A stretch of DNA of 32,000 bases from a cyanobacterium endosymbiont of Epithemia turgida isolate EtSB Lake Yunoko. Lineage in GTDB: Bacteria > Cyanobacteriota > Cyanobacteriia > Cyanobacteriales > Microcystaceae. Under the pieces are notes generated by a model. It saw only the letters and a list, made by a program, of their open reading frames with translations, was not told the origin of the DNA and made no database searches. Positions 1,663 through 28,034 of this stretch are shown in pieces. The stretch lies in the NCBI RefSeq assembly GCF_000829235.1, contig NZ_AP012549.1:1230001-1262000 (forward strand), read 5' to 3'. Each line of letters begins with the position of its first letter. Position 1 is the stretch's first letter. A program made the translations under genes and the position numbers.

Positions 1663-3003
1663 CTACAACTTTTCTCGTAAACGATAAATAAAAGTATGAG
1701 CATCAACTTCATTAATGATATTCTGGATAACAGTACTTGAACCCACTGGACTCCAACTACAGCCTTTTTCTAAATATTCTTGAGCTGCTTTCCCAACAAT
1801 GTAAGCATAATATCCAGCAATTCCCCCCTGCATTGTAGCGGTACTTCCATATGTCATTAATGCAGCTGAACTTTCTAAAAAACTGACGGCAGCAAGGGTA
1901 CTTTTTCCGAGTCCCAAAATGAATAATGTAGTTAGTTCCCCTAATAATAATCCACCTGAACTAACAAGAATTTTTTTCCAAAGTTTTCCCGCCTCATAAC
2001 TGGTAATAGGCAATCCATACAATCGAGCTAAAGCTCGAATTAAAGCCAAATCAGTTATCGCTCCTCCAATGAGATCTAAAAATACAACGGGATTAATTGC
2101 AACAGCTAGGGCTTTAGATTTAGTAAAATTCCAAATAATAGTCTCTGCTTCTTTTTCACGAATTGCTAGAGTTTTTTTTGCAATATTTTCTTCTGCTTCT
2201 TTTGCTTGCATTAATACATTTAAAGATAATAATGATCGCCCTTCTTGATTCAGAACAGTTAATATTTTTCGGCGTAACTCCTCCACTTGAGGAGATGGAG
2301 TTTCCCATTCTTCTATCACTTTACCATCAGGATATTTAACCTTTACAAGAACAGGTTGGGGTTCAGCTGCTACCCTTACAATTTCTTCGGGAGACAGAAT
2401 ATAGTTTTGTTTGTCTGTTTTGATTACTTGTAGTTGTTGATAAATTTCTTGACAATCTTGGTAGGGATAAAGATCGATTTTATTGAACACTAAAATTAAG
2501 GGCTTTTGACTACGTTGCAGTTCCTCTAGTGCTTCATATTCGGTACGAGTAATATCTCCCGCTACCACAAACAAAATTAAGTCAGCTTGATATGCTACTT
2601 CTTTAGCCATATTTGCCCTAGTTTTTCCTTCAATCTCATCTAGTCCAGGAGTATCAATAAATTCTACCTGAACTTTATCGCCAGGAGGTTTCCAGCGAAC
2701 AGATTTTGGCCACTGAGTTACCCCATGCAAGGGACCTGTATCGAGGAGTGTTTGTCCAATTAAAGCATTAATAACAGCAGACTTACCGCGACTGACTAAA
2801 CCAAAAGTCGCAATTCTAATGATATTTTGTTCAAGTTTATCTAAAGCTCCTTTGAGGATTTGTAAATCTTTACGTACAGCAGCTTGGAGTTCAGGATCAG
2901 GGGGATAATTCCAATGACGACGAAAACTCCCATACCAAGACAAGGTATGCTGAAGGCTAGTGTGGGCTTGTTGAAGATGAATTTCCTGTCGCGAAGAAAG
3001 CAT
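1663..3003 (-). CDS. membrane-associated GTP-binding protein (small GTPase domain plus DUF697-like hydrophobic C-terminal domain)
   Basis: 446-aa ORF. G1 is GLVSRGKSAVINALIG, G3 is DTPGLDE, G4 is NKID. The C-terminal third is glycine-rich and hydrophobic, as in cyanobacterial DUF697 GTPases. Confidence 0.85.
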   Translation of the reverse strand: MLSSRQEIHLQQAHTSLQHTLSWYGSFRRHWNYPPDPELQAAVRKDLQILKGALDKLEQNIIRIATFGLVSRGKSAVINALIGQTLLDTGPLHGVTQWPKSVRWKPPGDKVQVEFIDTPGLDEIEGKTRANMAKEVAYQADLILFVVAGDITRTEYEALEELQRSQKPLILVFNKIDLYPYQDCQEIYQQLQVIKTDKQNYILSPEEIVRVAAEPQPVLVKVKYPDGKVIEEWETPSPQVEELRRKILTVLNQEGRSLLSLNVLMQAKEAEENIAKKTLAIREKEAETIIWNFTKSKALAVAINPVVFLDLIGGAITDLALIRALARLYGLPITSYEAGKLWKKILVSSGGLLLGELTTLFILGLGKSTLAAVSFLESSAALMTYGSTATMQGGIAGYYAYIVGKAAQEYLEKGCSWSPVGSSTVIQNIINEVDAHTFIYRLREKL

Positions 3004-3215
3004 ATAATATAGACTACCTACTGATAGGATGGCAAAAATTTAGCCAAATCATAGCAAACATTAACAATTTTTAAAATTAATGATCACAATTATAGAGAGT
3101 TACACATTTACAAATTGCATCAAATATACAGTTTTTGGAATATATAAAGCAGTCACTACATGCTATGGTAACCCAAAATTATTTAACAATAATCAAATAT
3201 TCTATGAAGTAAGAA

Positions 3216-3251
3216 GAATCTATTTTAGTTTGAATGCTCTAAAATAGATTC
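3216..3251. repeat. perfect 12-bp inverted repeat (GAATCTATTTTA / TAAAATAGATTC) with a 12-nt loop
   Basis: Read directly from the sequence. Shares the ATCTATT/AATAGAT core with the palindromes at 26247-26293 and 26389-26428. Confidence 0.8.
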
Positions 3252-3293
3252 GTGGTAATTTAAAAATTTAATTTTTTTTTGCTTTTAATTTAA

Positions 3294-3354
3294 TTAGTGC
3301 TTTATTCCTTACATCTCATTACTCCTCACTTAATAACAACTTATAAAGCACTAA
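3294..3354 (+). ncRNA. candidate structured element: 12-bp stem (TTAGTGCTTTAT / ATAAAGCACTAA) with ACTCCTCAC in its 38-nt loop
   Basis: Perfect 12-bp inverted repeat. The loop carries ACTCCTCAC (3321-3329), which matches 9 of 11 nt of the Yfr1 core ACUCCUCACAC. No clear promoter or terminator was found. Confidence 0.2.
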
Positions 3355-5099
3355 GTGAAATAGTTAAGATTTTACTGTATTTACTAAATAAAAATTTATT
3401 AATTACACATAATTACTCGAATATATAATAGTAGTTACAAATAAATTAGTTACTTTTATTCAATCAAAAAAATATTTTTACTAGATTAATTTAAGCTTTA
3501 TTTTTTTAGTATTATCAATATATAAAATTAACCAATAGTATTAAATTAACTAGTACTTTTCGTGATTAAGACTTATATGTTTGGGCTTTTAACATTAGCA
3601 TATATCATTTCCATAAATGAGATATATTCTCAAAATAACTGAAGATGATTACACTATAAATATTAATATTTAGTGATTAGATACCAAGTATAAAGATATA
3701 AATTAGATTCAACCGTTAATTTTTTCATAAGAGTTATGATAGCTACTTTCTATTTGAAGAAGTTCTTCTTTTTTCTTTTAGAAAATACTTTATATTTTTC
3801 AAGCAACTATATTTAAGTTAATTTTTAAATGTATAACTTATAGTTAAATATTTTTTAATACTTGTGAAATAACATCTAATACCAAGTCTAATTGTCAGAT
3901 TCTCCTAAAACATATAAAAAAATTAACCCAAAATAAGGTTAAATTTCTTTAATTTTATCTTTTATTTAACTGAGGATGTCACTCTTACTCAGAGCTACTT
4001 TTTTGATTTTTTATCAATCATTTCAAAATACTTATTAACTTAATGCTAATCTACTAACATCTATCATCTTTCTACAAGCTCTAGTTATAGAAAGTAAGCT
4101 GATAAATATTTTTGAGCAATTTCTGCCAGAAAACTATTTGGCATTATCTTCTATTAATAAAATTTTTTTCCGTATAATTCCATATCTTTAGCTGAATTTA
4201 GTTAATAAAAATTTAGCTATTTTGTATTCGCTCTTGTAATTTAATTCCATAAGGGGTTTCCTAATAATGGTTTAATAAATCTATAAACACATAACTATTC
4301 ATAGTCCTGAATTACTATAGCAGTTATTTTTTTCTGATTGGCTTTAATTCTACTCTAGGTTCATCAAAAACTATATATCTATGATGATTTGACTGAGTTA
4401 AACATAGCAATATAGCGCTATTTGTTCAATCACTCCTACAGCCTTGTAACTAGGTAGATATAAGAAATAAATTGGTAAATTGATTCTGTATATATGTGGA
4501 TTGGAGACTAAAATTTTAATAAAACAGAAGATAAAAATTTCGGTTTAGACTTCTCAAAACGAACTGGATTTAGACTAAGTCCTCTACAACAATCTTTATC
4601 TTCTGAATGTTGGTCCATTAGAGAATAATCATATTTATGGCTTTTTATCTTTACACAATTATGGATCGTTTATAACCTTTTTATATAGTAGTTACTCCGG
4701 ACCAGCTTGGTATATTATCAGTACAACATCACTTCCGAGTGATAAGAATGGAGGAACGGAATACGATAGCATTGCTTATATAAAATCAACTAAAAACAAT
4801 CTAGTTATCGGAACGATTGACAATACAATAGTAGATTTCCAAACCTATTTATTTCTTTAGCTACTCTCGATGACAGCGATTTCTCAGTACTACGCTATAA
4901 GAACCTCGATGTAAGTTGGGTAGAATTGGTGGGTGGTTCAGGAGAATCATAGTCTTGACCCAATAAGTCTGACATTCTGTCGAACAGGGGAGCTCATTTG
5001 CTATGGTAGACGGTGGACTTTATAACTAGAACCGAAGTTCTATAAATCTAGTTCCGACTCAATTTCGTTCTTTCGAAGTTAGAAAATTAGATTGTGATA

Positions 5100-5277: not shown

Positions 5278-6177
5278 TTATAATTGGGATCTTGGAAAGT
5301 TTCCCAAGTGACTGTACCACAGCCATTTTAATAAATGCTGACTTATAGCAATTAATCCTAATCGAGCTTGAGATAATTGGAGATTATTTTGAGCTAAATC
5401 TCCAAAAATTCGGCAATTACGTTCAAAATCTAAAATAGATTCGCTTAATTGAGTTCCAAGCTTATTCCAGGTTACTGAAGGATTGTTAACTGACCGATCA
5501 ACAGTGATAACCACCTGATTAATTAGGGCTAAGGCGGATCGATGGGTAAGCCGTAATTGATAATTATTTTTCAGCCAAGGAATAGGATCGGGAACTTTCC
5601 AAGGCAATGTTAAGTCGCCCGAAGCCTCTGACTGAAAAGTAATTAACCCCTCTGTCTCTCCTAAACGTAATAAAGAACAACACCTCGCATAGGTATATTC
5701 AATAAGAAATAAATTATCAGCTTTTTTTGGTATTTTAGATAAGTTAGGTTGAAAAAATATCTTTTGTCCTAATAATTGTAACCAAAGGACAAGAGTGTGA
5801 TCGCTCACCTCAAAATCTAACCACCCTGGGTCAATGAGTTTCATTGTCAATGTTAATTGGGAAAATTCTTGATCGTCAAAATTAGATTGAGCTTTCAACA
5901 TAGAAAATACCTGTTGTGCAATCTCAATAGGAGATAGAGAGAGCTTACTTGACAGTTGCATGGCTATCGCACAACGATAAGTAATCGGAGTAGAAGAGGA
6001 TAAGCGGGACACAGCTAAAATTTTATGAGGTAAATTCAATGAGGGTTCTTTAAAGAATTGTAAATTGATTAATAAGCGTGATAATTGTTTTTGTAATTGT
6101 TGTTGAATAGATAAATCTTTTAAAAAAATTTTAAAAGAAGTATAATCAGTATTTAAAAGACGAGTTTTCATAGTCAA
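5278..6177 (-). CDS. DALR anticodon-binding domain protein (arginyl-tRNA synthetase-like, lacking the catalytic core)
   Basis: 299-aa ORF. The N-terminal part resembles the ArgRS Add-1 domain (ITYRCAIAMQLSSKLSLSPIEIAQQV ... IDPGWLDFEVS, compare GDY..N.A..LAK.L...P..IA and PGFINF). The C-terminal part resembles the DALR domain (IEYTYARCCSLLRLG, compare VQYAHARI.SILR; and QARLGLIAISQHLLKWLW). No HIGH or KMSKS region lies between them. Confidence 0.65.
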   Translation of the reverse strand: MTMKTRLLNTDYTSFKIFLKDLSIQQQLQKQLSRLLINLQFFKEPSLNLPHKILAVSRLSSSTPITYRCAIAMQLSSKLSLSPIEIAQQVFSMLKAQSNFDDQEFSQLTLTMKLIDPGWLDFEVSDHTLVLWLQLLGQKIFFQPNLSKIPKKADNLFLIEYTYARCCSLLRLGETEGLITFQSEASGDLTLPWKVPDPIPWLKNNYQLRLTHRSALALINQVVITVDRSVNNPSVTWNKLGTQLSESILDFERNCRIFGDLAQNNLQLSQARLGLIAISQHLLKWLWYSHLGNFPRSQL

Positions 6178-6680
6178 TACTTAAATATGAGCAAATAAAC
6201 TTGTTGTAAATGTTATTGATTTTAGTTAACAACCTGATAAGAAGGTTTTTACTCGACACATCCTTAAATATATCTTTGCTATTTAGAAATAATCGAGTAT
6301 AATTAATTGTGTATCGGTTCGTTTAGACTATTAATAATTTATACCTTGATTGTTGATGTTATATAATTGATTACCACTTTTATTGCTACTTGACTTGTAA
6401 ATACAGAAGGTATTGGTAAGTCTCCTATCAGCGGCAATGACATCATTTCTACTATGGTAACTTCTACTTGTGGCTATTGGGTTACAGTTTTGTCCTATCT
6501 GGAATATAGTTTTTATAAATAAACGCTTTATATCGAGAATTATATTAATTATTTTTAATTTTTTGATTATGATTTACTATCATTGTAGTTGTCTTTATAA
6601 ATTAAGCAGCGGAGCGTTTTGCTTTATATTAACTTTCTAAACTGACTACAATATTTTCACATATTCGTTATACATAACGA

Positions 6681-6752
6681 TTTTAAATTGGGTAGATCAT
6701 AATAACAGCAGCAGGTGAATCAGCCAATTATGCCTTCATCAGTTATTAACCT
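6681..6752 (-). repeat. dispersed 72-bp repeat, copy A, carrying promoter-like TTGGCT-N17-TATTAT on the minus strand
   Basis: About 83% identical by eye to 9811-9882, in the same orientation. On the minus strand, -35 TTGGCT is at 6727..6722 and -10 TATTAT at 6704..6699 with a 17-nt spacer, pointing toward the 5278-6177 ORF. Confidence 0.6.
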
Positions 6753-7563
6753 AATTACCGGATTGATATCTCGATAATTATGGAGTTCTTAATTTTACCA
6801 ATATTATTAATTTCTTACCAAGAGTTTCGAATAGAGTTAAATTCTGAAGAATATCGTTTTATCTTATTAAGAAATAAGACCTCAATAAAAGAAAATTTTT
6901 CTACTCCATAAGGGAATATTTTGATTTTTTTTATTACTTAATAATATCAAAAAAAACGATTTAAAAATATTTAACTAATTGTTAGTTTAATCAAGAATAT
7001 TACTAGTTTTTATTGCTTTAGCGTAGATATTTATTTTAAAAATTTAACTTATTTTAATGAAAATTATTATTGTTAGCTACAGCAGAAACATGTAAAAAAA
7101 CTAATACAATTTAGTTAAATGTTTCTGCAATAAAAACCCTCATTAATTAGTATTGTTACTTTATATAAAACAAAGATAGGTACATATTACAATACGATAT
7201 ATAAGTTATTGATGTTAAACTAATTTATGATTTTGGATCATAGAAATAAATTTTACATAGAATGTTCAAAATATTTTTTTATTATTTACTTGCTATTGTA
7301 AATTTTTTCTACTTTAAAATACTTAAATTTTTATCAATTATTTTTTATCAATTAAGATAGTATTATATCGACTAACACTAGGTTTTTAATTTTTAAAATT
7401 GTAAAGAATCAATAAATATTAACAAATAATATTTATTGGTAAGATATTTATACTAAAATAGCAAAAAATATTGTTTTTAAAAAACTGATAAGTATCTTTT
7501 AAAATTTGCTATTTCTTGACTTTTCTTGATTAGAGTTGCATATTTAAAATACCCATAAAATCC

Positions 7564-8730
7564 TTATTTACTTTTTTTATATCCCAAAATTTCCATTGCC
7601 ACGCGATTGCATACCCCCACTTCTCCTAAGAGAGTACACATTTGATCATAATTTTCTAAGGTTTTTTGACGACGTTCAGTATTAAGCAACAAGTCTAAAG
7701 ACTCTTGTACAATACGATCTATAGTTGCTTCTTCCTGTAATAATTCAGGAACAATTTCTTCCATCATCACTAAGTTTGGAGGAGACATAAAAGGAATAGA
7801 AAACTTTAAAATATTACGAGCAATCCACATAGTTAAAGGATTGACTAAACATAATACTAATTGAGGAATTCTAAGTAAAGCTAATTCTAAATTAACAGTC
7901 CCTGATTTAGCGATAGCGAAATCTGCTGCAGCCATTACCTCTAAAGCTTTTTGTCCCTCAAGCAAAGTAATCGAAAGTTGATAGGTATTAACTGTTGCTT
8001 TAATGGTATCGTGATATTCACTCAGAGAAATAGGAAGTAAAAAATGAAGATCAGGAATTTTTTCTTGAAGTTTTTGGGCTGCTTTACACATCCGAGGAAG
8101 GTGATATTTCAACTCTTGATAACGGGAAGCCGGAAATAAGGCGACTACCGTTTGACCGGAATCAATATTTAATCTAAGACGGGCTTCTTCACGGCTAGGA
8201 GCTTGAGTCATACGATCTAGTAGGGGATGACCAACCCACTTAACTTGAACACCTTTTTCTGCAAAAAATTGGGCTTCTTCAGGAAAAATTGCTAAAAGAA
8301 GATCAGTAATATGAACGAACTGTTGAATAATTTTACTATTGGGAGTCCAGACCCAAGATTGAGGAGCGATGTAATAGATAATAGGAACTTCAGGGAAATG
8401 CTTGCGAGCATATTGACCAAAGGCGGAATTAGGTCCCATATAATCAATAAGAATAAGAATATCAGGGAGATTTTGTCGCAAATATTGTTTAACTCGACGT
8501 TGTGTTAACCAAGTAGGAATAATAAACGGAAGAGACTCAACAATACCAATAGACCCAATAGCCGCGGTATTCCCTAACAATTTTGCACCCGCTTGTGCCA
8601 TGAGATTACCACCCAAGGCTAGAATTTCCAAAGGGATACCTTGACCTTCGGCTTGTTGGTAAAGAGCTTCAACCAACATTGAGCCCTGTAAATCCCCAGA
8701 TACTTCCCCTGTACTGATAAAAATTCGCAT
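7564..8730 (-). CDS. lpxB: lipid-A-disaccharide synthase
   Basis: 388-aa ORF. The N-terminus MRIFISTGEVSGDLQG matches the LpxB GE.SGD motif. Similarity to LpxB runs the full length (IAPQSWVW, AKSGTVNLELAL, PNLVMMEEIVPELLQEE). It lies 49 bp downstream of lpxA. Confidence 0.93.
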   Translation of the reverse strand: MRIFISTGEVSGDLQGSMLVEALYQQAEGQGIPLEILALGGNLMAQAGAKLLGNTAAIGSIGIVESLPFIIPTWLTQRRVKQYLRQNLPDILILIDYMGPNSAFGQYARKHFPEVPIIYYIAPQSWVWTPNSKIIQQFVHITDLLLAIFPEEAQFFAEKGVQVKWVGHPLLDRMTQAPSREEARLRLNIDSGQTVVALFPASRYQELKYHLPRMCKAAQKLQEKIPDLHFLLPISLSEYHDTIKATVNTYQLSITLLEGQKALEVMAAADFAIAKSGTVNLELALLRIPQLVLCLVNPLTMWIARNILKFSIPFMSPPNLVMMEEIVPELLQEEATIDRIVQESLDLLLNTERRQKTLENYDQMCTLLGEVGVCNRVAMEILGYKKSK

Positions 8731-9882: not shown

Positions 9883-10909
9883 AACCGTTTCATTTATACT
9901 TTGATTGATTGATACCTCTATGATTTTATAATTTTTGAGTACAAAAATATCCTTTAATTTATAACTAACAGTTTTAATTGAGTTGAAATCAGAATAGTAA
10001 TAAACAATACGAGTTTTACTTCTATAGATTCCATTATTTTTCTAGAATTTGTAGCTTTATCAGCCGGTGAATTATCTTTAACCACATAATTTTTGAGATT
10101 CTATGGTACCAGCATTTCTATTTTATTAGTGAAAAGAGCTCAAAAAATCGATGTAGTAAATTTATAAATGAACGTAATATTTTTTAAAAATTATTGGAAC
10201 ATTTATTATAAGCTTGTTTTCCTTTAGTTGTTCTGGTAAAGTGACGGCGTATAGTTAACTTATACCCAATTTTGTCAATATAAACTAGGTTTTAACGTTT
10301 TGGTTCTCCAAGTTTCCTTGAAAATTACTAACCAAATAATTGAAACCCATCTGTGTAAGGTTCTAAGGCAGAAAGTATCCTTGTGTCAGGTCAACTTGAA
10401 ATTTGGGGCAGAAACAAATATATTAAGAATACCGACTATATGTAATACTTATTTTTTATGTAAGTCAATATTTATGGTTCGTAAAAAATATCCTTATATT
10501 GTTCTAGAAATTATTCAATAAAATTAAGTTTCTTTACCTCAATCTAAAGTAGGCTTTTAAAAGCATAAAACAAAAGTTGAATATTTATCTTTGCTTTCCA
10601 AGACATAAGAAAAAAATAATAAAATTATAATTATTTTTTAAAATTTATACCAGTCCTAGAGTTCATTGATTACTCTTATTGTTAGTTTCTATGATTTTAG
10701 TCAAAATATCCATGGAGTATAGCTTGATTGTTGTAGTTTGTTAACTTTATTTGATTTAAAAATCTTTTAGAAAGACGAAGATCGTTATTAAGTTGTTTGA
10801 AAGTAAATAAGGAAACTAATGAGGAAATTTGATATTAATGACCGAAGGAATAATACTTAAAATTTTTAAAATACAAATATTAAGATATAATTTCGTTACT
10901 TATGATTTG

Positions 10910-10954
10910 ATCAATAAATACAATCTAATAATAGATTAGATTGTATTTATTGAT
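10910..10954. repeat. perfect 20-bp inverted repeat with a 5-nt loop
   Basis: 10910-10929 (ATCAATAAATACAATCTAAT) pairs perfectly with 10935-10954. The loop is AATAG. It sits in a gene-free AT-rich region. Confidence 0.85.
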
Positions 10955-11353
10955 GATTAGACAAAGATAATAACTTGTAAAATTACAGCCAAAAGTTAAA
11001 TATCTATTGAGATAAAAATAGGATTGATATGATACCATGAAGTATGGTGACATTCTCTCGACATATTAAACGCTATAAATAAGCTAAATTATTTTTCTTT
11101 ATTTAAAAAATTTAATATTTTAAATTTATTTAACACTCATTTAAGTTACTAAGTTCTATTCAGCTTGTTAAATATTATTTTTAATATTAATATCTGGAAA
11201 ATATTATTGAAAAATTATTTTAGTTCTTGATGGTTTGCTTATTAATAAAATTATTATCAAATTTAGGCTATGTTGGGTTTTGACGAACTTTTATTATTTT
11301 AAGTTTGGTAAAGTCGGTTACTATCACTCTTGATGAGCAGTACTCAAATATAA

Positions 11354-12035
11354 TCAACCAACTTTAAGATTATCAAGAAAAGACTCTCCTGATCCTTCAA
11401 GACGATCACCTCCATTTTCTAAAACATAGCCTCGACCAGCAATCAACAGAGCTTTTTGGGAGTTGTGTTCTACTTTAACAATAGCTTTTAATGGCTTCGA
11501 TTTACTCAAAAATATTATCAACTAAAATGAGGGCTAGGGCAGCTGAAGGTTCATCTAAAAGTGACAAATCAGGATCAAGCATTAAAGCTCGTTCCATCGC
11601 TAACATTTGGTATTTTCCCCCTGATAGCTTACCAACTCGTTTGGGACGACGTTGTTCCAAACAAGAAAACATGGTCTAAATACGATGTTTATCCTCTTTT
11701 AAAGAGCCTTTTTTAATAAATGCTCCCACTTCTAAGTTGTCATCGATGGTTAAGGCAGAAAAAAGATTAGAAATTTGAGGAATATAGTACATCTCATGGC
11801 GGATAATTTTATCTTATGGCACCCGAGCGATATTTTCTACTTTAAAGATGATTTTGTTCTGTTTAGGGGTTAATAGTCCATAAATAGTTTTGGCAAATGT
11901 AGACCTTTCTATCCCATTAGGACCAATTACATCTACTAATTCCCCGGAGACAAGGCAAAAGTTAATCCCTTGCAATATATTGAAGTCTTCAACTTATCCT
12001 GCATAAATACTTTCTATTTATAAGATATTTTCCAT
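11354..12035 (-). pseudogene. decayed ABC-transporter ATP-binding subunit (LivF/BraG/NatE/UrtE family)
   Basis: Minus-strand conceptual translation: MENIL*IESIYAG*VEDFNILQGINFCLVSGELVDVIGPNGIERSTFAKTIYGLLTPKQNKIIFKVENIARVP*DKIIRHEMYYIPQISNLFSALTIDDNLEVGAFIKK...HRI*TMFSCLEQRRPKRVGKLSGGKYQMLAMERALMLDPDLSLLDEPSAALALILVDNIFE*IEAIKS(frameshift)IVKVEHNSQKALLIAGRGYVLENGGDRLEGSGESFLDNLKVG*. There are five in-frame stops and at least one frameshift. Walker A is degraded (GPNGIERST versus GPNGAGKST). The LSGG signature and Walker B (LLDEPS) are still readable. Confidence 0.85.
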
Positions 12036-12129
12036 AGAATTTAAAATCATCAATAATTAGGGTAAAAACTAACTAAAAACTTTTTAATGTCGCTCCTCTG
12101 AGCCTTTGATAACCTCTATTTTAGACTAT

Positions 12130-12357
12130 TTAGAATTGTGTTTTCTGCAATTCAGGGCGTTCTTCTGGAATAATTGCGCCTTCAACTGGACAAACTGTTA
12201 TGCAAATTCCGCAGTCAATACAGGTTTGAAAGTCTATCCAATACCAATCAGTTCCATTAACATTTTTGCCCGGACCTTCATGGATGCAAGCAACAGGACA
12301 AACATCTACACAGTCAGCAACCCCTTGACAGGTTTCAGTAATGATAGTATGTGGCAA
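12130..12357 (-). CDS. small dicluster ferredoxin, probably 7Fe type ([3Fe-4S][4Fe-4S])
   Basis: 75-aa ORF. The second motif is the canonical CIDCGICITVCP. The first motif, C-QG-V-AD-C-VDV-CP, has Val where the second Cys would be, which is typical of 3Fe-4S sites. The start codon is TTG, preceded by GGAGG with a 6-nt spacer. Confidence 0.85.
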   Translation of the reverse strand: MPHTIITETCQGVADCVDVCPVACIHEGPGKNVNGTDWYWIDFQTCIDCGICITVCPVEGAIIPEERPELQKTQF

Positions 12358-13549
12358 AGTGTTTCCTCCAAGTTTTAATGTTTGAATGTCATAGTTTTCT
12401 TATTGTGGCAGACTTTCTTCTCTTATTTCAACGAAATTTTCTCACTTTTGAATATATAAAAAGACTAAATATGCCTTTGTTTCTTGAGCTATTTATTCAA
12501 TATCAATTTCTGAGTGATTTTAAGGAGGGGATAACTTATTCAACTTTAATACTACCTTTAAATCTTGATTGTTCAAGGTATCTAATCTACTTACTACTGG
12601 ATAGATAACACACTTGTTCATTGGTATTAATAATCGGACATTGTAGTAGGATAAAAGCAATTTATAGTTAACCGAGTCCTTTAATATAGTCGCTAAAACT
12701 GGGGGTTAGGAGTCGTTGTACCTATTTAGGACTGATCATCTAACTTAAGTATTTAAAATAAACGTTACATTCATTAGATTTTAGTTTTTATGTTAAATCA
12801 CTGTGCATTATATTCAGTAAAATTTAATAGTTATGCCGAACTGATGATGTAGAAATAAACCATTTTTAAAATCAATTAAAATTGATTTTAAATCTCTTAT
12901 ACTATTTTCTAAACCATCCTTGATTTAAGATGGGTATCAACTTCCCCAGTCTAAACATTGGACTGGGTTCTCAACAATTTTTTGGTATAATAAATTGTTA
13001 ATTTCAATGAATTACTTTGATAGTCCTGATAGAAAATTTTATATATCTATTATCTGATTAATCTTTATTAAATTAGAGAATATTATATATAATATATCTA
13101 TTAGAATTTAGCTCTTAGTTCTATTTTAAGCTCTATTTATTCTTAAGTAAAAAATTTATTTTGTTGTCTATTTATGAAGTATTTTTACCCTTCAACTAGT
13201 ATTTTGAAGTTGTATTAACTGGTTTAGTGAAATACAATATATATCTTGCTAATTCAGGGTTTTATGTTAGGGTTTTTGCTATATTTTTCTTGTTGTTAAG
13301 AATAAATAACTTCTTTTCTTTACTTAGTTTATTTGTAGTTTTACAGAGCTTTTTATTAATCACATCGTCAAGTTACTTAGTGATTTATTTTTTAAATAAA
13401 CTGATGTTTTTTAAATAAATAGTATTGTTACTGTCATATTTTACAGATTATAAGGGATGTTCGGCAAATAATTAAATCTAATTATTTGAGAAAAAGAACG
13501 CAACCCTCGAGCCAATCTTCAATCTATTTATAAAATAAGTCTACTTGCC

Positions 13550-13580
13550 AATCTGTAGATGTACTTTATGTCTACAGATT
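13550..13580. promoter_or_regulatory. 10-bp perfect inverted repeat AATCTGTAGA / TCTACAGATT (11-nt loop) upstream of dapB
   Basis: Read directly from the sequence. It is part of a cluster of five GTAGA/TCTAC words between 13539 and 13664, about 25-150 bp upstream of the dapB ATG. Confidence 0.35.
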
Positions 13581-13686
13581 AGTAAAAATTCCCTGTAGTT
13601 ATAGAAGACTTGACGATAAAAGTGTTAAATAGGTTAAAATACAAAAAATATGCGATTTGTAGACTTATTCTTTAGGATAATTATTA

Positions 13687-14514
13687 ATGACAACTGAATC
13701 TTTAATTCCAGTAGTAGTAAACGGAGCAGCAGGTAAAATGGGGCGTGAAGTCGTTAAGGCTGTTTCTCAAGCTGAAGATATGATGTTAGTCGGAGCAGTA
13801 GATCACAACCCTGATTATCATGGGCAGGATGTCGGAGAAGTAGCTGGATGTGGGGCATTAGAGGTACCGATTATTAATGATTTGCAAAGTATTTTAGTGT
13901 TAGCCGCCGAAAAAAAGGTACAAGGGGTCATGGTGGATTTTACTCGCCCCGATGGGGTCTATGAGAATGTGCGAAGTGCGATTGCTTATGGAGTACGGCC
14001 AGTGGTAGGAACAACAGGATTAAGTGAAGAAAAAATCAAAGAATTAGGAGAATTTGCTGAAAAAGCTAGTACCGGATGTTTGATTATCCCTAATTTTTCC
14101 ATTGGTATGGTGTTATTACAACAAGCGGCTATTCAAGCATCCCAATACTTTAATCATGTAGAGATTGTTGAACTTCACCATAATCAAAAGGTAGATGCAC
14201 CCAGTGGAACCGCTGTTAAAACGGCTCAGATGTTGTCAGATTTGGGCAAAATGTATAACCTTCCTTCTGTGAAAGAAACAGAAACTATTCAAGGAGCAAG
14301 AGGCGGGTTAGGAAATAATAATATCAGAATTCATAGTGTGCGTTTACCTGGCTTAATCGCCCACCAAGAAATTCTTTTTGGGGCAAAAGGAGAACTTTAT
14401 ACTCTACGGCATGATACCAGCGATCGCTCTTGTTATATGACGGGAGTTTTATTGGCTATTCGCAAAATAACTCAACTAAAATCTCTGATTTATGGACTAG
14501 AAAAAATTCTATAA
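13687..14514 (+). CDS. dapB: 4-hydroxy-tetrahydrodipicolinate reductase
   Basis: 275-aa ORF. It has the N-terminal dinucleotide-binding motif [14 protein letters not shown] and the DapB signature [15 protein letters not shown]. Confidence 0.95.
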
Positions 14515-14673
14515 AATAAAAAAAATTAATAATTTTGCATAGATAAACTTTAAGTTAAAAACCTAGTATACTTCTTGTTTAAATCTAGTTCATGCGCTAT
14601 TAGCATGAATATTGACGAAGCATAAATAAAATTAATATCGTCTCAATAAAACTTGATATAATCAAATTTATTC

Positions 14674-14970
14674 TCATTCTGCCTGATATTGAATTAATAT
14701 GAAAGGCAAAACAATTAATGCCTTAAATGAAATAGAAGAATCAACATTCCAAGTTGTTAATTGTTCAGGAGAGGGTTTGTGACTTTAGGCTTTGCTAATC
14801 CAATGTGGCACAAATTTGACATCATCTTTAGCAATAGTAATCCCGACTTCTATTAAGTCTAAATGTTTAGTTACAAAAATGATAGATAGTATCTTTTTTG
14901 CATGGAGCGTTAAATATTGCCATTTAACATCAGAAAGATCTTCACTAAAGCGAGTTTCAAGGTTGTTCAT
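14674..14970 (-). pseudogene. small conserved hypothetical ORF (tentatively DUF2288-like) interrupted by an in-frame TAA
   Basis: The 61-aa ORF (14785-14970) ends ...DDVKFVPHWISKA*. The same frame continues straight after the TAA (14785-14787) for 36 more sense codons (SHKPSPEQLTTWNVDSSISFKALIVLPFILIQYQAE) to a TGA at 14674-14676. The combined length is about 98 codons. The family assignment is from memory only. Confidence 0.5.
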
Positions 14971-15002
14971 TGATTAATTTGCCACAATAACCGCAAAGAT
15001 AG

Positions 15003-15309
15003 ATTATGAATCAACCTCAAGGAGTATACAAAACATTATGAATCAACCTCAAGGAGTATACAAAACATTATGAATCAACCTCAAGGAGTATACAAAACAT
15101 TATGAATCAACCTCAAGGAGTATACAAAACATTATGAATCAACCTCAAGGAGTATACAAAACATTATGAATCAACCTCAAGGAGTATACAAAACATTATG
15201 AATCAACCTCAAGGAGTATACAAAACATTATGAATCAACCTCAAGGAGTATACAAAACATTATGAATCAACCTCAAGGAGTATACAAAACATTATGAATC
15301 AACCTCGAG
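15003..15309 (+). repeat. perfect 32-bp tandem repeat, about 9.6 units, reiterating the queC SD/ATG/first codons
   Basis: The unit is ATGAATCAACCTCAAGGAGTATACAAAACATT. ATGs occur at 15006, 15038 and so on to 15294, ten in total. All copies read as identical. The last copy diverges after ATGAATCAACCTC into the queC body. Confidence 0.97.
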
Positions 15310-15998
15310 CTGTTGTCTTGCTATCTGGAGGTTTAGATTCAGCTACCTCAGCTGCAATCGCTCTCTTCAAAGGTTACAATCTAATTGCCCTTTCTCTACG
15401 CTATGGACAACGCAACGAAAAGGAATTAGCAGCAGCTAAGAAGATCGCTCAAGACTTAGGCATAAGCGAACACTACATTACTGATGTTAATATTGCTCAA
15501 TGGGGAGGATCATCCTTAACTGATAAGTCTTTGACTATTCCTCAAAAGGGAATTCAATCTGATATTATTCCCTCTACCTACGTTCCAGGAAGAAATACTG
15601 TTTTTATCGCTCTTGCTCTCTCTCTAGCAGAAACTAAAGAAGCTAAGGCGATTTTCATAGGGATTAATGCTGTAGATTATTCAGGATATCCTGATTGTCG
15701 TTTGGACTATCTTAAAGCTTATCAAATGTTAGCTAATTTATCTTCAAAAGCAGGAATTGAAGGCAATGCCCCTCAATTAATTGCCCCTTTACTTAGGAAT
15801 TCCAAAGTAGATATTGTACACCGCGCTATTGCTCTAGGGGTAACCATTGAGGATACTTGGTCTTGTTATCAAGGAGGAGAAACCCCCTGTGGCTTATGTG
15901 ATTCTTGTCGTATACGTGATTTCGCCTTAATTGAGGCAGGATACCCTGAATTAGCTACTCCTAAAGGGAGAAGACGATTAACGAACTTCGAAAGTTAG
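15294..15998 (+). CDS. queC: 7-cyano-7-deazaguanine synthase
   Basis: 234-aa ORF. It has the PP-loop [12 protein letters not shown] and a C-terminal zinc-binding Cys cluster ([20 protein letters not shown]). Confidence 0.93.
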
Positions 15999-16209
15999 AA
16001 GAAGAAAAAGTCTTTTACTTCATTCGTATAAATCCGAAAAATAGGACAAAACAAAATTGATGGAATGTAGAGATGATAAAGTTTTGTTTTTTGACAGATT
16101 AGGATATCAGCTTTACGATAAAACCTAAATTTGTCCCTTTAATCAACAGCTTCTTCAGTAACTATAAAACTTAAATAACTAAGTAAGGATAATAGATAGT
16201 CAAGCATAC

Positions 16210-16249
16210 TTTCCATTCCTTAGAATACTTATAATCTAAGGAATGGAAA
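16210..16249. repeat. 13-bp perfect inverted repeat (TTTCCATTCCTTA / TAAGGAATGGAAA) with a 14-nt loop
   Basis: Read directly from the sequence. An A-run follows it on the + strand and a T-run precedes it on the - strand, so it is not a canonical terminator in either orientation. Confidence 0.7.
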
Positions 16250-16612
16250 AAATGATCCTTGTTTTTTATAATTTTTTAGTTTAGAATTTACCATAATTAG
16301 GTTAATAGTAATTTCGTTACAATAAATTATTTTTTATTTTATAGAAGTAAGTATTGCTACAAAAAGATTTATATCTAATAGTTGAGATTAGATTACTATT
16401 CGAGATCTTCTTGAAGAGAAAAATAATTTTTTTAATAAAGTAAAATATTGTTCATATAAACTAATTTTAAAAAAAATTATAATCATTAAACAACGTTTAT
16501 TCTCTTACATTATAGCAAATTAGATCTAAGCTTTAATCACAAAATTAACAAATATCAATGCAGCTGAAATTTTAAGTATTTTATTTTTCATCATACTTTT
16601 TAAAGATCAATA

Positions 16613-17342
16613 ATCCGTGTTCTTATTATAACAGTTATTTTTATTGAGGTTTACAAAACTAACGTTTTGTTCGAACAAGATCATAAAGTTGTTCTATTTA
16701 ACTAAGAGGATAAACTTGCACTAGTAGATAGAATATAAGATAATTATGGCGCGTATAAAGATCTTGCTCTACTAACACAAAAATCATCTCTTTCAAAATT
16801 TAATACTATGTTTGATAACGATAGTTGTAAATTAAATGTTACTTAATCTTTGGTAAAAATTTTATTATATAAGATTGAATATTTTGTTGATGTTCATTCA
16901 ACCTTGATTTATTTAAGATCTCAACAAATGTCCTATTGTGATAAAAAGTAAAGTTAAAAATAGAATTTATAAAACCTAAAAACGGCAGACTTGTACTTCT
17001 ATTCGTTCTACTTATCTCTAAGGTCCTTATAATTGGAGTAATTTACTTGACAAAACTATTGATGATTTCTTCCTGTCTATTCCTGGAAATAGATTACATT
17101 CTACTCAATTTTACTATGTTCAAGATTTAGTTGAAGAAATTGCTTCTTCACTAGAAGATAAAGAAGTGATAGGAAAAATTTATAAAATTTGAGGATAACG
17201 TTATATGATCTTTAATGGATTAGCTTATACCTGTGAAATGGCGGTGAGACACTCAGCAGATGAGCTCAAAAGTATTGGTTATAATTTCAAGCAATTTAAC
17301 TTAAGTAAAAAAAAAATTCTGCTAATATTTATTAAATATTAA
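16613..17342 (+). pseudogene. decayed NAD-dependent epimerase/dehydratase (extended SDR, CSP41-like) gene
   Basis: Conceptual translation: IRVLIITVIFIEVYKTNVLFEQDHKVVLFN*EDKLALVDRI*DNYGAYKDLALLTQKSSLSKFNTMFDNDSCKLNVT*SLVKILLYKIEYFVDVHSTLIYLRSQQMSYCDKK*(frameshift)RIYKT*KRQTCTSIRSTYL*GPYNWSNLLDKTIDDFFLSIPGNRLHSTQFYYVQDLVEEIASSLEDKEVIGKIYKI*G*RYMIFNGLAYTCEMAVRHSADELKSIGYNFKQFNLSKKK. It is collinear with cyanobacterial homologues of the form MRILVMGGTRFIG...VVLFNRG...FD.IFDN.GR...FVY.SS.GVY...TS.RP.YIYGP.NYN...WFF.R...IPG.G...TQ..HV.DLA...G.IYNI.G.RY.TF.GLA...FD.GK.K. There are at least 8 in-frame stops and one frameshift, the Rossmann GGTRFIG motif is lost, and no start codon remains. Confidence 0.8.
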
Positions 17343-25967: not shown

Positions 25968-26246
25968 AAAAAATCCAATTTCAAGAGAAATAAGTATAAT
26001 TTTAGTTTTTATACGTCTATTCTGTTTGAAAACAGTTATTTTTTAGCTTTAACTCTCTTCGTTTCATTAAATAATACGCTGGTATTCTAGCATTTGCCCT
26101 TTGATAAAGAAGTGTGGGAATATACAGAACATGGCATTCTTTGTTTCATGTTATGTCACCTGTTTAAGAAAAACATCAAATTACTATTAGCTATTGACTT
26201 AGTAACCATCTTTAAATAAACTCTAAAAACGCAAATTATTTTTTTC

Positions 26247-26293
26247 TATCTATTAAAGAAATTAGAATTAAATTCTAATTTCTTTAATAGATA
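26247..26293. repeat. 47-bp perfect palindrome (23-bp arms around a single central base)
   Basis: TATCTATTAAAGAAATTAGAATT-A-AATTCTAATTTCTTTAATAGATA, verified base by base around centre 26270. Confidence 0.9.
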
Positions 26294-26388
26294 TTTTATT
26301 AGAGTAACTCTTTTTATTTAAAGTTTATTTAACTACCTTATTTAAGCAGATGCATCTTCAAAGATATTGATAGAAGTTGGACAAAATA

Positions 26389-26428
26389 TAAATTTAATAG
26401 ATTATTATTTAATAATCTATTAAATTTA
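26389..26428. repeat. 40-bp near-perfect palindrome (19-bp arms, 2-nt centre)
   Basis: TAAATTTAATAGATTATTA-TT-TAATAATCTATTAAATTTA, verified base by base. It lies 96 bp from the 47-bp palindrome and shares the AATAGAT/ATCTATT core. Confidence 0.9.
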
Positions 26429-28034
26429 GTTTCAACTAAACCACTTGTGTACATTGAGTAATGAGCAATGACAATTACTGTGTCTATCTACTTTTATTTA
26501 CAAGATCTATAGTTTCCTGAAGATATTTACCCTTGAAATCTAAATATTTTATCTACTTACTGGTATGATTTCTTATTTTTTTTAAAAAATTAATAATTTT
26601 TCTAAAAGTTAATTGTACTTTTTCATTTTATTTTTATTTAGTGAACAATCATTGGCTGTTACAAGATTATAAATTTGTTATTTTTGTTTTTTTGTGCTTA
26701 AAGATTTTTTTGCTTTAGGGGAAAATTATTAGGTTGTAATTAAATTACAATAATAAGCTTTTTTTAAAAAAATTAACTGATTTTTTATGTAGTTTAATAT
26801 TTAGTTTTATCTTAGATTTTTATCTTAAATATATTTATCTTTGTATACTCAAATAAGTATTAATTATTAATTTTTTTTTATATTTACATTAAATACCTAG
26901 TATTAAGATGAAGATAAATGAATAAAATTGTACTCTAATTACTTGAGTAATAGCTAGGATTGTCGTTATTATATTAATTGCTGCAATATCCTAATATATT
27001 ACTCTAATAATAGTAGCTTAATTAAATTGATGTGGTTCCTAAATAATATCATTGTTATGCATATATTGATAAATACTTATATTTAAAATGCTAATATTTT
27101 TATTTATCAAAGATTAACAATTTAAAAAATAAATAAATATAAATATCGTTTTAAATAAATCTTAAGATATGTTCTTCCTTTCAATAAATAATATTTAATA
27201 TCGATTGAGGTATATATTTTAAAAGTGTAGATTTTAAATATTAAACACCTAAAATAAAAAAAAGTTATTTTACTCAACCCTGATAAATAATTGTATATAG
27301 GATAAACTACATACAATTATTTATGATAACATATTTTGGGCTGTAATAACTTTAGCAACTACTAAAAAATATGTTTATAATTAAAGTATTTATCCACCAA
27401 AGTCTTTCCAGTATCCTGTTTTAGTTTATTGTCTATGATAGGATGCACAGAGATTAAAGATTTTCTTATCTACAATCTCACGGTCAATTTTAAAAACCCA
27501 ATACATAGTGAATAATATTGTAGATAGTTACTTCAAAACCTATTGGTAAGATCATAATATTTATTTAGACAATCAAGAGTATTGTTATCAATATTTTTTA
27601 AGTATTTTTAATACTTAATTAATTTTTACCTTCACTTCAGTAAATATATAAAAAAGCTATCCTTAAATCACCTTTATATATCATTTTATAACTTCCATTG
27701 AACTATAAAACTAAACCCTTATTAAAATAATAAAACCAGTTACAGTAATTTTGTAAATTTTAGAGTTATATTTCCATATTTTTAGATAAGTACGTTGTAT
27801 TTAAAACTCATGTAATTCCTATAAATTTTGTAGAAAATAATAAATTATTAGGTATTTTATAGAAAAATATTTTTCAGTAGGTTTTGCAAATTATCTATAA
27901 ATTTGATGATAACCTTCCTTTTATTTCTTATATAACTATTAATTCTCTAGATTTAATCAGACCAAGATTTCTATTAGGTATGGATAGATTGTCAAAGTCG
28001 ATCACCTCACTTGATTAGTACGTAATGGTAGAAT

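What the first reader, a model, noticed from the sequence alone, without database searches (positions are those of the whole stretch)
15003..15309. Perfect 32-bp tandem array turns the queC leader into a chain of nine ATGA-coupled 11-codon mini-ORFs
The unit ATGAATCAACCTCAAGGAGTATACAAAACATT is repeated head to tail about 9.6 times with no mismatch that I can see. Each unit holds an ATG, the first four queC codons (M-N-Q-P) and an SD-like AAGGAG 13 nt upstream of the next ATG. Each ATG opens the [14 protein letters not shown]-stop. Its TGA overlaps the following ATG (TTATGA), the classic termination-reinitiation arrangement. Because 32 is not a multiple of 3, successive ATGs rotate through the reading frames. 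The tenth ATG (15294) opens the real queC ([16 protein letters not shown]...). The array fills almost the whole 323-bp divergent region between queC and the broken minus-strand ORF at 14970. Perfect identity implies very recent amplification or ongoing homogenisation. Copy number could act as a tunable or contingency element for queuosine-precursor synthesis by changing leader length, ribosome relay or decoy starts. I know of no described queC regulation of this type, so the function is inference.
Basis: partly seen in the sequence, partly recalled or inferred. Interest (0 to 1): 0.8.

Follow-up and report, generated by a model that had tools for sequence, protein, structure and literature searches.

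The report
Variable tandem repeat before queC
A 32-base piece holding the ribosome-binding site and start of the queC gene has been copied head to tail 9.5 times in a diatom's nitrogen-fixing endosymbiont; close relatives carry 1 to 3.5 copies, so it is a real, fast-changing repeat, most likely a replication-slippage by-product and not a regulator.

Summary
Window 15003..15306 is a perfect 32-bp tandem array of 9.5 copies. It contains nine ATGA-overlapped 11-codon mini-ORFs ([11 protein letters not shown]), and the tenth ATG (15294) opens an intact queC.

The window comes from the spheroid body of the diatom Epithemia turgida, a cyanobacterial endosymbiont. The unit is queC's own translation-initiation region: SD-like AAGGAG, 13 nt, ATG and the first 13 nt of the gene.

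Copy number across relatives:
- 1 copy in five outgroup lineages.
- 2 diverged copies in the Rhopalodia gibberula endosymbiont.
- 1.5 copies in metagenome lineages.
- 3.5 perfect copies in the E. adnata endosymbiont, which differs by 0.7% in coding sequence.
- 9.5 copies here.

An independent read set gives a contig 100% identical to the window. It breaks exactly k-1 bases into the array, so this is not a one-unit assembly artefact.

queC stays under purifying selection. The array RNA is unstructured, and no riboswitch or known RNA family matches. The divergent neighbour gene (DUF2288) is a nonsense pseudogene.

Best reading: a slippage-generated minisatellite in a degrading intergenic region, tolerated because the last unit keeps the native start context. 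The ATGA coupling follows automatically from a 32-nt period and the ATGA start. A tuning or contingency role is untested and less likely. I rate it a new member of a known kind, of modest interest.

The parts
15003..15306 (+). Perfect 32-bp tandem array of 9.5 copies. Unit: ATTATGAATCAACCTCAAGGAGTATACAAAAC.
   Evidence: TRF score 608 with 100% matches. Per-unit check shows 0 mismatches.
15006..15297 (+). Nine identical mini-ORFs (ATG at 15006 + 32n, n = 0..8), each [11 protein letters not shown] then TGA. Each TGA overlaps the next ATG as ATGA.
   Evidence: Translation from every ATG; sequence read.
15275..15280 (+). Last of nine AAGGAG Shine-Dalgarno-like hexamers (first at 15019, then every 32 nt). 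It lies 13 nt before the queC ATG.
   Evidence: Read directly. Single-copy orthologues have (G/A)GGAG or GGAAG at the same place.
15294..15998 (+). queC (7-cyano-7-deazaguanine synthase), intact, 234 aa. Its first 13 nt belong to the repeat unit.
   Evidence: Pfam QueC E = 4e-69. 100% identical to BAP17663.1 of the E. turgida endosymbiont. dN/dS 0.13-0.31 against relatives.
14979..15007 (+). Promoter-like site TTGCCA-17-GATTAT directly before and overlapping the array's left edge. Candidate queC promoter.
   Evidence: Consensus scan, 9 of 12. The block ..AGATAGATTAT / ..ATAGGTTAT is kept in most spheroid-body lineages compared and differs only in L124. Function is inferred, not shown.
14689..14970 (-). 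DUF2288 pseudogene, divergent from queC. The ORF 14785..14970 ends at an in-frame stop (codon 62), and homology continues in frame to 14689.
   Evidence: Pfam DUF2288 E = 1e-11, covering profile positions 2-57 of 91. tblastn with the intact 96-aa orthologue of L119 shows ..HWISKA*SHKPSPEQ...

Best explanation
The array is a hypervariable minisatellite (a variable-number tandem repeat). It was made by slipped-strand or unequal-exchange duplication of a 32-bp segment of queC's own translation-initiation region, in the spheroid-body (diazoplast) endosymbiont lineage of rhopalodiacean diatoms.

Inferred history:
- The ancestor had one copy.
- A first duplication used the 4-bp microhomology CAAG. 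This is present in the ancestral 5' UTR (..ACAAGGAG..) and in the ancestral codons 4-6 (CCT CAA GCx). It produced the junction CAACCTC|AAGGAG.
- The E. turgida / E. adnata / metagenome clade shares a 1.5-copy base state.
- From that base state the array expanded to 3.5 copies in E. adnata and to 9.5 in E. turgida. These changes were recent enough, or homogenised often enough, that every unit is identical.

The array persists for two reasons. Each gain or loss of whole units leaves the gene-proximal unit unchanged, so queC keeps its native SD, spacer and ATG. Also, the divergent neighbour DUF2288 is already a pseudogene, so the shared intergenic region is under little constraint.

If the conserved promoter-like site at 14979..15007 drives queC, the array is an unstructured 5' leader of about 280 nt carrying eight SD-preceded mini-ORFs. 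Ribosomes could start at any of them, stop at UGA inside AUGA, and either reinitiate or leave. I expect only a small net effect on QueC. The mini-ORFs and their coupling are by-products of the period (32 = 2 mod 3) and the ATGA start. They were not selected for.

Shown here: the array, its local origin, copy-number variation, the intact and constrained queC, and the absence of RNA structure or a known RNA family. Inferred: the slippage mechanism, the promoter and leader status, and near-neutrality.
For: - Array and mini-ORFs.
- Source organism: QueC is 100% identical to the E. turgida endosymbiont protein on a 2,794,318-bp contig.
- The unit is the locus's own sequence. The R. gibba endosymbiont reads AAGGAGTATACAAAACATTATGAATCAACCTCGAG once. 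The E. clementina endosymbiont, uoEpiScrs1, L119 and L124 also have one copy.
- Copy-number series with the same junction: 2 in the R. gibberula endosymbiont; 1.5 in L050-L057; 3.5 in L048 (E. adnata, CP076462) and in the independent JGI contig L049; 9.5 here.
- A neighbour-joining tree of dapB + queC puts the 1.5, 3.5 and 9.5 lineages in one clade. E. turgida and E. adnata are 0.7% apart.
- Flanks are 95.3-97.5% identical between those two genomes, while all units are identical.
- Not an artefact. Logan contig L117 (SRR29904087) is 100% identical to window 11187..15032 and ends exactly 30 nt into the array, as expected for a k = 31 graph meeting at least two periods. The 112-bp E. adnata array is shorter than the k = 127 used for that assembly, so it cannot be a collapsed loop.
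- Slippage is a recurrent mutation type at this locus: a 21-bp perfect tandem duplication inside DUF2288 in L051/52/54/55/56, an AAGGA-AAGGA duplication in R. gibba, and published 'complex tandem repeats' elsewhere in the E. adnata endosymbiont genome (PMC11131595).
- queC is still constrained: dN/dS 0.13-0.31.
- DUF2288 has been hit by nonsense mutations three times independently. It is intact only in lineages with one copy of the unit.
- The leader is unstructured, z = +1.49. Rfam gives no hit at gathering threshold and only chance hits at E up to 10.
Against: - Near-neutrality is inferred. It has not been measured, and no expression, TSS or ribosome data were available.
- A 9.5-copy perfect array of a complete SD-ATG module is unusual, and an effect on QueC output cannot be excluded.
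- The exact figure of 9.5 rests on the deposited assembly alone. The independent reads only show at least two periods.
- Whether the R. gibberula two-copy state shares its origin with the E. turgida clade or arose separately is unresolved, because R. gibba branches between them with one copy.
- The association between DUF2288 decay and repeat gain rests on about three lineages against four.
Confidence: 0.68

Rival explanations
1. Selected tuning or contingency element. Copy number sets QueC output, for example by ribosome loading and relay through ATGA-coupled upstream ORFs, by decoy starts, or by mRNA stabilisation. Variation in copy number would be maintained because it lets the endosymbiont or host adjust supply of the queuosine precursor.
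For: - Copy number differs sharply between very close lineages: 1.5, 3.5 and 9.5.
- Every unit is a complete SD + ATG module and each stop overlaps the next start.
- queC is retained under purifying selection.
- There is precedent. Promoter tandem repeats with phase-variable copy number in M. tuberculosis change expression (PMC12817950). Short coupled ORFs can deliver ribosomes to a downstream gene (PMC12548453).
Against: - The coupling geometry is forced by the 32-nt period and the ATGA start, so it is not independent evidence of selection.
- Single-copy orthologues have no upstream ORF.
- The leader is unstructured, so no unmasking by coupling is needed.
- The mini-ORF has 2 of 11 queuosine-decoded codons (Asn AAU, Tyr UAC), about the background rate.
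- An obligate, vertically inherited endosymbiont has no obvious need for stochastic switching.
- Other slippage duplications sit in the adjacent pseudogene.
Confidence: 0.13
2. Transcriptional effect. The repeats multiply promoter-like elements or change promoter geometry. This could act on the minus strand towards DUF2288, giving antisense transcription to the queC 5' end, or on the plus strand for queC, as in mycobacterial promoter tandem repeats.
For: Each unit junction gives a minus-strand sigma-70-like match, TTGAGG-18-TATACT, eight times in total. The region has 15 promoter-like sites against 7.7 +/- 2.8 in shuffles. The E. clementina single-copy sequence has the same minus-strand motif natively (read directly).
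Against: - These are consensus matches only (9 of 12).
- The excess over shuffles is simply the same site repeated.
- The minus-strand target gene is a pseudogene here.
- The motif is not conserved in L119 and L124, where DUF2288 is intact.
- No plus-strand promoter-like site lies inside the units.
Confidence: 0.07
3. Assembly artefact, or a wrong copy number in the deposited genome.
For: Perfect tandem arrays are hard to size. The E. turgida endosymbiont genome dates from 2014, and I could not read its methods. Short-read assemblies of relatives cannot size long arrays.
Against: - An independent run (SRR29904087) gives a contig that breaks exactly k-1 nt into the array, which requires at least two full periods in the reads.
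- Multi-copy arrays with the same unit occur in two other independent assemblies (L048, L049).
- The same junction occurs in at least ten further contigs.
Confidence: 0.04
4. Protein-binding iteron array, or a replication-related element in a genome that lacks dnaA. The 32 bp is about three helical turns, and each unit holds the palindrome GTATAC.
For: Regular in-phase direct repeats. Spheroid-body genomes are reported to lack dnaA (bioRxiv 10.64898/2026.03.19.712447).
Against: The unit is simply the queC start region. Relatives function with 1 to 3.5 copies. There is no GC-skew turn at this position. No binding protein is known.
Confidence: 0.02

Closest known systems
Mycobacterial interspersed repetitive units (MIRU-VNTR)
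   Same: Intergenic minisatellite units of tens of bp with variable copy number. An ORF inside the unit is coupled to the downstream gene with a -4 nt (ATGA-type) overlap, which is thought to minimise the effect on that gene's expression (review PMC12548453).
   Different: MIRUs are a dispersed family found at many loci, apparently mobile, and they insert at start codons. Here the unit is a local duplication of the gene's own initiation region. It is found nowhere else in the 32 kb and is absent as a repeat in single-copy orthologues.
Promoter tandem repeats with phase-variable copy number in M. tuberculosis (e.g. upstream of dop, lpdA, efpA, glpD2)
   Same: Tandem duplication of a gene's upstream control region. 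Copy-number changes are polyphyletic among lineages, and such loci are easily missed or mis-sized by short reads (PMC12817950).
   Different: Those repeats act by changing promoter strength, and they were shown to vary within isogenic populations. Here the duplicated module is the translation-initiation region. No within-population data or expression effect is available.
Simple-sequence contingency loci of host-adapted bacteria (Neisseria, Haemophilus) (from general knowledge)
   Same: Hypermutable repeats at the 5' end of a gene, generated by slippage.
   Different: Those use 1-7 bp units that switch genes on and off by frameshift or promoter spacing. Here whole 32-bp units are added upstream of an unchanged final start, so queC is never thrown out of frame.
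Translationally coupled overlapping genes and regulatory upstream ORFs (termination-reinitiation at AUGA)
   Same: The stop of each mini-ORF overlaps the next AUG by 4 nt, and an SD lies upstream. This is the classic coupling geometry (PMC12548453).
   Different: No conserved leader peptide, no alternative RNA structure and no codon bias suggest sensing. The upstream ORFs are copies of the gene's own N-terminus.
preQ1 riboswitches, the known cis-regulation of queC operons in many bacteria (from general knowledge)
   Same: Location: the 5' region of a queuosine-precursor gene.
   Different: No preQ1-I, -II or -III match, even at E up to 10. No significant fold.

Membership tests
Bacterial minisatellite / VNTR | Head-to-tail repeats of a unit of about 10-100 bp, at least 2 copies | tested here: met
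   Period 32, 9.5 copies, 100% identity.
Bacterial minisatellite / VNTR | Copy number differs among related genomes at the orthologous locus | tested here: met
   1, 1.5, 2, 3.5 and 9.5 copies across spheroid-body lineages.
Bacterial minisatellite / VNTR | Copy-number variation within a species or population | not testable with these tools
   No read-level data. The only other E. turgida-type contig (L117) breaks at the array.
Phase-variable contingency locus / promoter tandem repeat | Repeat-number change switches or grades expression of the adjacent gene | not testable with these tools
   Needs reporter or expression data.
Phase-variable contingency locus / promoter tandem repeat | Repeat change shifts the reading frame of the gene (on/off) | tested here: not met
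   The array lies upstream of the functional ATG. The last unit and the 234-aa ORF are intact in the 1.5-, 3.5- and 9.5-copy lineages.
MIRU-like element | Internal ORF coupled to the downstream gene by a 4-nt overlap | tested here: met
   TTATGA at every junction; [11 protein letters not shown] then stop.
MIRU-like element | Dispersed family present at many loci / inserted from elsewhere | tested here: not met
   No 12-mer of the unit occurs elsewhere in the 32-kb window. The unit equals the single-copy orthologous sequence. The whole genome was not available.
preQ1 riboswitch | Match to the Rfam covariance models for preQ1-I, -II or -III | tested here: not met
   No hit at gathering threshold over the window. 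Only three chance hits to unrelated families at E up to 10 in 14900..15420.
Regulatory leader peptide / attenuator | Upstream ORF conserved in orthologues, with alternative RNA structures or regulatory codon enrichment | tested here: not met
   Single-copy orthologues have no upstream ORF. Folding z = +1.49 for the array and -0.44 for the last units plus the queC start. 2 of 11 Q-family codons.
QueC (7-cyano-7-deazaguanine synthase) | Full-length match to Pfam PF06508 with an intact ORF | tested here: met
   E = 4.4e-69, profile positions 1-209 of 210.

The most novel reading that the evidence does not exclude
Copy number of a self-derived SD-ATG module acts as a heritable translational dial for queC in an organelle-like endosymbiont. 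A train of ATGA-coupled mini-ORFs would load and relay ribosomes to the true start, or titrate them away. Lineage-specific expansion (1.5, 3.5, 9.5) would then reflect selection on queuosine-precursor supply to the endosymbiont or its diatom host.
Probability: 0.1. Interest if true: 0.6.

Novelty: new member of a known kind. Interest (0 to 1): 0.3.

Why it matters
This is a clean, datable example of how tandem repeats arise and grow in a young, organelle-like endosymbiont genome that has reportedly lost its mobile elements. It shows a microhomology duplication of a gene's start region, then rapid expansion from 1.5 to 3.5 to 9.5 copies over less than 1% coding divergence.

Practical value:
- It is a ready-made length marker for telling Epithemia endosymbiont lineages and populations apart.
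- It is a warning that short-read assemblies break or mis-size this locus.
- It is a natural series of 1 to 9 coupled upstream ORFs that could be used to test how reiterated SD-AUG modules affect translation.

It says nothing new about queuosine biology unless an effect on expression is shown.

Tried and rejected
- **preQ1 riboswitch or other known RNA.** Rfam at gathering threshold and at E up to 10 on 14900..15420 gave nothing relevant.
- **Structured leader.** Folding gave z = +1.49 for the array, -0.44 for the last units plus the queC start, and +1.44 as single-stranded DNA. The complementarity between GAAUCAACCUC and queC 15327..15340 is not significant.
- **Queuosine-sensing leader peptide.** Only Asn AAU and Tyr UAC among 11 codons, which is the background level.
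- **Repeat protein.** Both strands carry stops within each 96-nt period, and no ORF of 40 aa or more crosses the array.
- **Dispersed element.** No other copy in the window.
- **Replication origin or iterons.** Rejected because relatives carry 1 to 3.5 copies and there is no skew turn.
- **Searches that led nowhere:**
  - Exact look-ups of the window's QueC and DUF2288 proteins.
  - Both metagenome-contig scans, which hold no spheroid-body loci.
  - The 2014 genome paper, which is not held.
  - SRR29904087, which no paper cites.
  - Spheroid-body papers, which do not mention queC or this repeat.
- **Scripting error.** The dN/dS row for L003 is invalid because I gave a frame-shifted coordinate. 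I ignore it.

Full report
**1. Observation**

The sequence at 15003..15306 is a perfect tandem array with period 32, 9.5 copies, 100% matches and TRF score 608. It is the only strong array in the window. Every unit is identical.

Each of the nine upstream ATGs (15006 + 32n) opens [11 protein letters not shown], and its TGA overlaps the next ATG. The frames rotate because 32 = 2 mod 3. The tenth ATG (15294) opens a 234-aa ORF that is a full-length QueC (Pfam E = 4e-69). AAGGAG lies 13 nt before each ATG.

**2. Where the window comes from**

QueC is 100% identical to BAP17663.1 of the cyanobacterial endosymbiont (spheroid body) of the diatom Epithemia turgida, on a 2,794,318-bp contig. The window fits that source. 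It has about 32% GC, long AT-rich gene-poor stretches and ordinary cyanobacterial housekeeping genes: dapB, lpxA/B, ribonucleotide reductase and histidine kinases. There are no other queuosine genes nearby, no tRNAs and no Rfam hits.

**3. Origin of the unit**

I compared the orthologous loci from other spheroid bodies.

- The R. gibba endosymbiont has AAGGAGTATACAAAACATTATGAATCAACCTCGAG exactly once. More than 20 independent Logan contigs of that lineage agree.
- The E. clementina endosymbiont, uoEpiScrs1, L119 and L124 also have one copy.

So the unit is queC's own SD-spacer-ATG plus its first 13 nt. It is not a foreign element.

The repeat junction CAACCTC|AAGGAG is what a duplication between two CAAG tetramers would give. 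One CAAG sits in the ancestral UTR (..ACAAGGAG.., kept in R. gibba and L124). The other sits in ancestral codons 4-6 (CCTCAAGC, kept in E. clementina, uoEpiScrs1 and L057). The segment between them is exactly 32 bp. This is an inference.

**4. Copy-number series**

| Lineage | Copies |
|---|---|
| Five outgroup lineages | 1 |
| R. gibberula endosymbiont (diverged copies; the first keeps the ancestral ATGATGGAT) | 2 |
| One Logan and seven JGI contigs | 1.5 |
| E. adnata 19Bon2 endosymbiont (CP076462) and an independent JGI metagenome contig (perfect copies) | 3.5 |
| This window (E. turgida) | 9.5 |

A neighbour-joining tree of dapB + queC (1497 nt) groups the 1.5-, 3.5- and 9.5-copy lineages. 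E. turgida and E. adnata are sisters at 0.7% divergence. R. gibba (1 copy) branches next and R. gibberula (2 copies) outside it.

The flanks of E. turgida and E. adnata are only 95.3-97.5% identical, yet all units are identical. The expansions are therefore recent, or the arrays are continually homogenised.

Whether the R. gibberula duplication shares its origin with this clade (with a collapse in R. gibba) or arose separately at the same microhomology is not resolved.

**5. Not an assembly artefact**

A Logan contig from run SRR29904087 is 100% identical to window 11187..15032. It ends exactly 30 nt into the array. That is where a k = 31 graph branches if the reads contain at least two full periods. 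By contrast, 1.5-copy loci assemble straight through in Logan.

The E. adnata array (112 bp) is shorter than the largest k-mer (127) used for that assembly (PMC11131595), so it cannot be a collapsed loop.

The exact figure of 9.5 for E. turgida rests on the deposited sequence alone.

**6. Functional clues**

- queC is intact in every lineage. Pairwise dN/dS is 0.13-0.31 (the L003 row is invalid because of my frame error).
- The only plus-strand promoter-like site near the array is TTGCCA-17-GATTAT at 14979..15007. It sits in a block (..AGATAGATTAT) that most lineages keep. If it is used, transcription starts at about 15011..15016, after the first ATG, and the leader carries eight mini-ORFs.
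- The array RNA is less structured than shuffled controls (z = +1.49).
- No riboswitch-like match exists.
- The mini-ORF has no excess of queuosine-dependent codons.
- The ATGA overlap is forced by the period and by the gene beginning ATGA, so it is not independent evidence of design.

**7. Neighbourhood**

The divergent gene is DUF2288 with an in-frame stop at codon 62. Homology continues to 14689. The same stop occurs in E. adnata and L057. Different stops occur in R. gibberula and R. gibba. The gene is intact (96 aa) only in lineages with one copy of the queC unit.

A separate 21-bp perfect tandem duplication lies inside DUF2288 in one metagenome lineage. R. gibba has an AAGGA-AAGGA duplication at the SD. 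The E. adnata genome paper reports three gaps at 'complex tandem repeats'.

Slippage duplications therefore seem to be a common mutation type in these genomes, and this intergenic region is under relaxed constraint.

**8. Explanation and comparison**

The best-supported reading is a slippage-generated, hypervariable minisatellite. It is tolerated because every unit change leaves the gene-proximal initiation region untouched (confidence about 0.68).

It resembles MIRUs in one respect: an internal ORF is coupled at -4 nt to the downstream gene (PMC12548453). It also resembles the copy-number-variable promoter tandem repeats of M. tuberculosis (PMC12817950). It differs from both because it is a locally derived, single-locus copy of a translation-initiation region.

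A selected tuning role is possible (about 0.1-0.13) but has no positive evidence. A promoter-multiplication effect is a weaker rival. It rests on eight minus-strand TTGAGG-18-TATACT matches. An iteron or origin role and an artefact are both unlikely.

**9. Verdict**

Its evolutionary history can be reconstructed in some detail. In kind it is an ordinary bacterial VNTR, so I class it as a new member of a known kind. The spheroid-body papers I could search do not mention it. Interest is modest (0.3): it is useful as a marker and as a natural experiment on reiterated start sites, but no regulatory role has been shown.

Noticed in passing
window 14689..14970 (-): DUF2288 is a nonsense pseudogene with a stop at codon 62 (14785-14787). 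The same stop occurs in E. adnata and L057. Independent stops occur in the R. gibberula and R. gibba endosymbionts. The gene is intact (96 aa) in E. clementina, uoEpiScrs1, L119 and L124, which are exactly the lineages with a single queC unit.
   Followed up: yes
L051 134..178 (also L052, L054, L055, L056): A perfect 21-bp tandem duplication (CTTTAGCAATAGTAATCCCGA x2.1) inside DUF2288 lengthens the ORF from 60 to 67 aa in one metagenome lineage. It is a second slippage event, about 220 bp upstream of the queC array position.
   Followed up: partly
window 15023..15276 (-): Each unit junction forms a minus-strand sigma-70-like match, TTGAGG-18-TATACT, eight times, pointing towards the DUF2288 pseudogene. 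These are consensus matches only.
   Followed up: partly
window 15327..15340 versus each unit: GAAUCAACCUC in every unit is complementary to GGAGGUUUAGAUUC in queC codons 12-16 (the SGGLDS motif region). The predicted hairpin is not better than shuffles (z = -0.44).
   Followed up: partly
L002 3970..3990; L120-L123: The R. gibba endosymbiont has a 5-bp tandem duplication, AAGGA-AAGGA, at the queC SD. It is identical in more than 20 independent Logan contigs.
   Followed up: no
queC 3' end, window about 15975..15998 and orthologues: The length of the QueC C-terminus differs among spheroid bodies (227, 228, 234, 235 and 245 aa) because the stop codon has shifted.
   Followed up: no
window 3001-4000, 6001-8000, 10001-11000, 16001-17000, 26001-28000: These stretches have 21-26% GC and no ORFs of 90 aa or more. 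They are probably eroded pseudogene remains, consistent with the low coding density reported for these genomes.
   Followed up: no
L118 2451..2501: A run of N lies inside queC in CP191493 (an R. gibba-like endosymbiont). It explains why the protein is annotated as 'partial'. It could be a mask or an assembly gap, and it is unrelated to the repeat.
   Followed up: no
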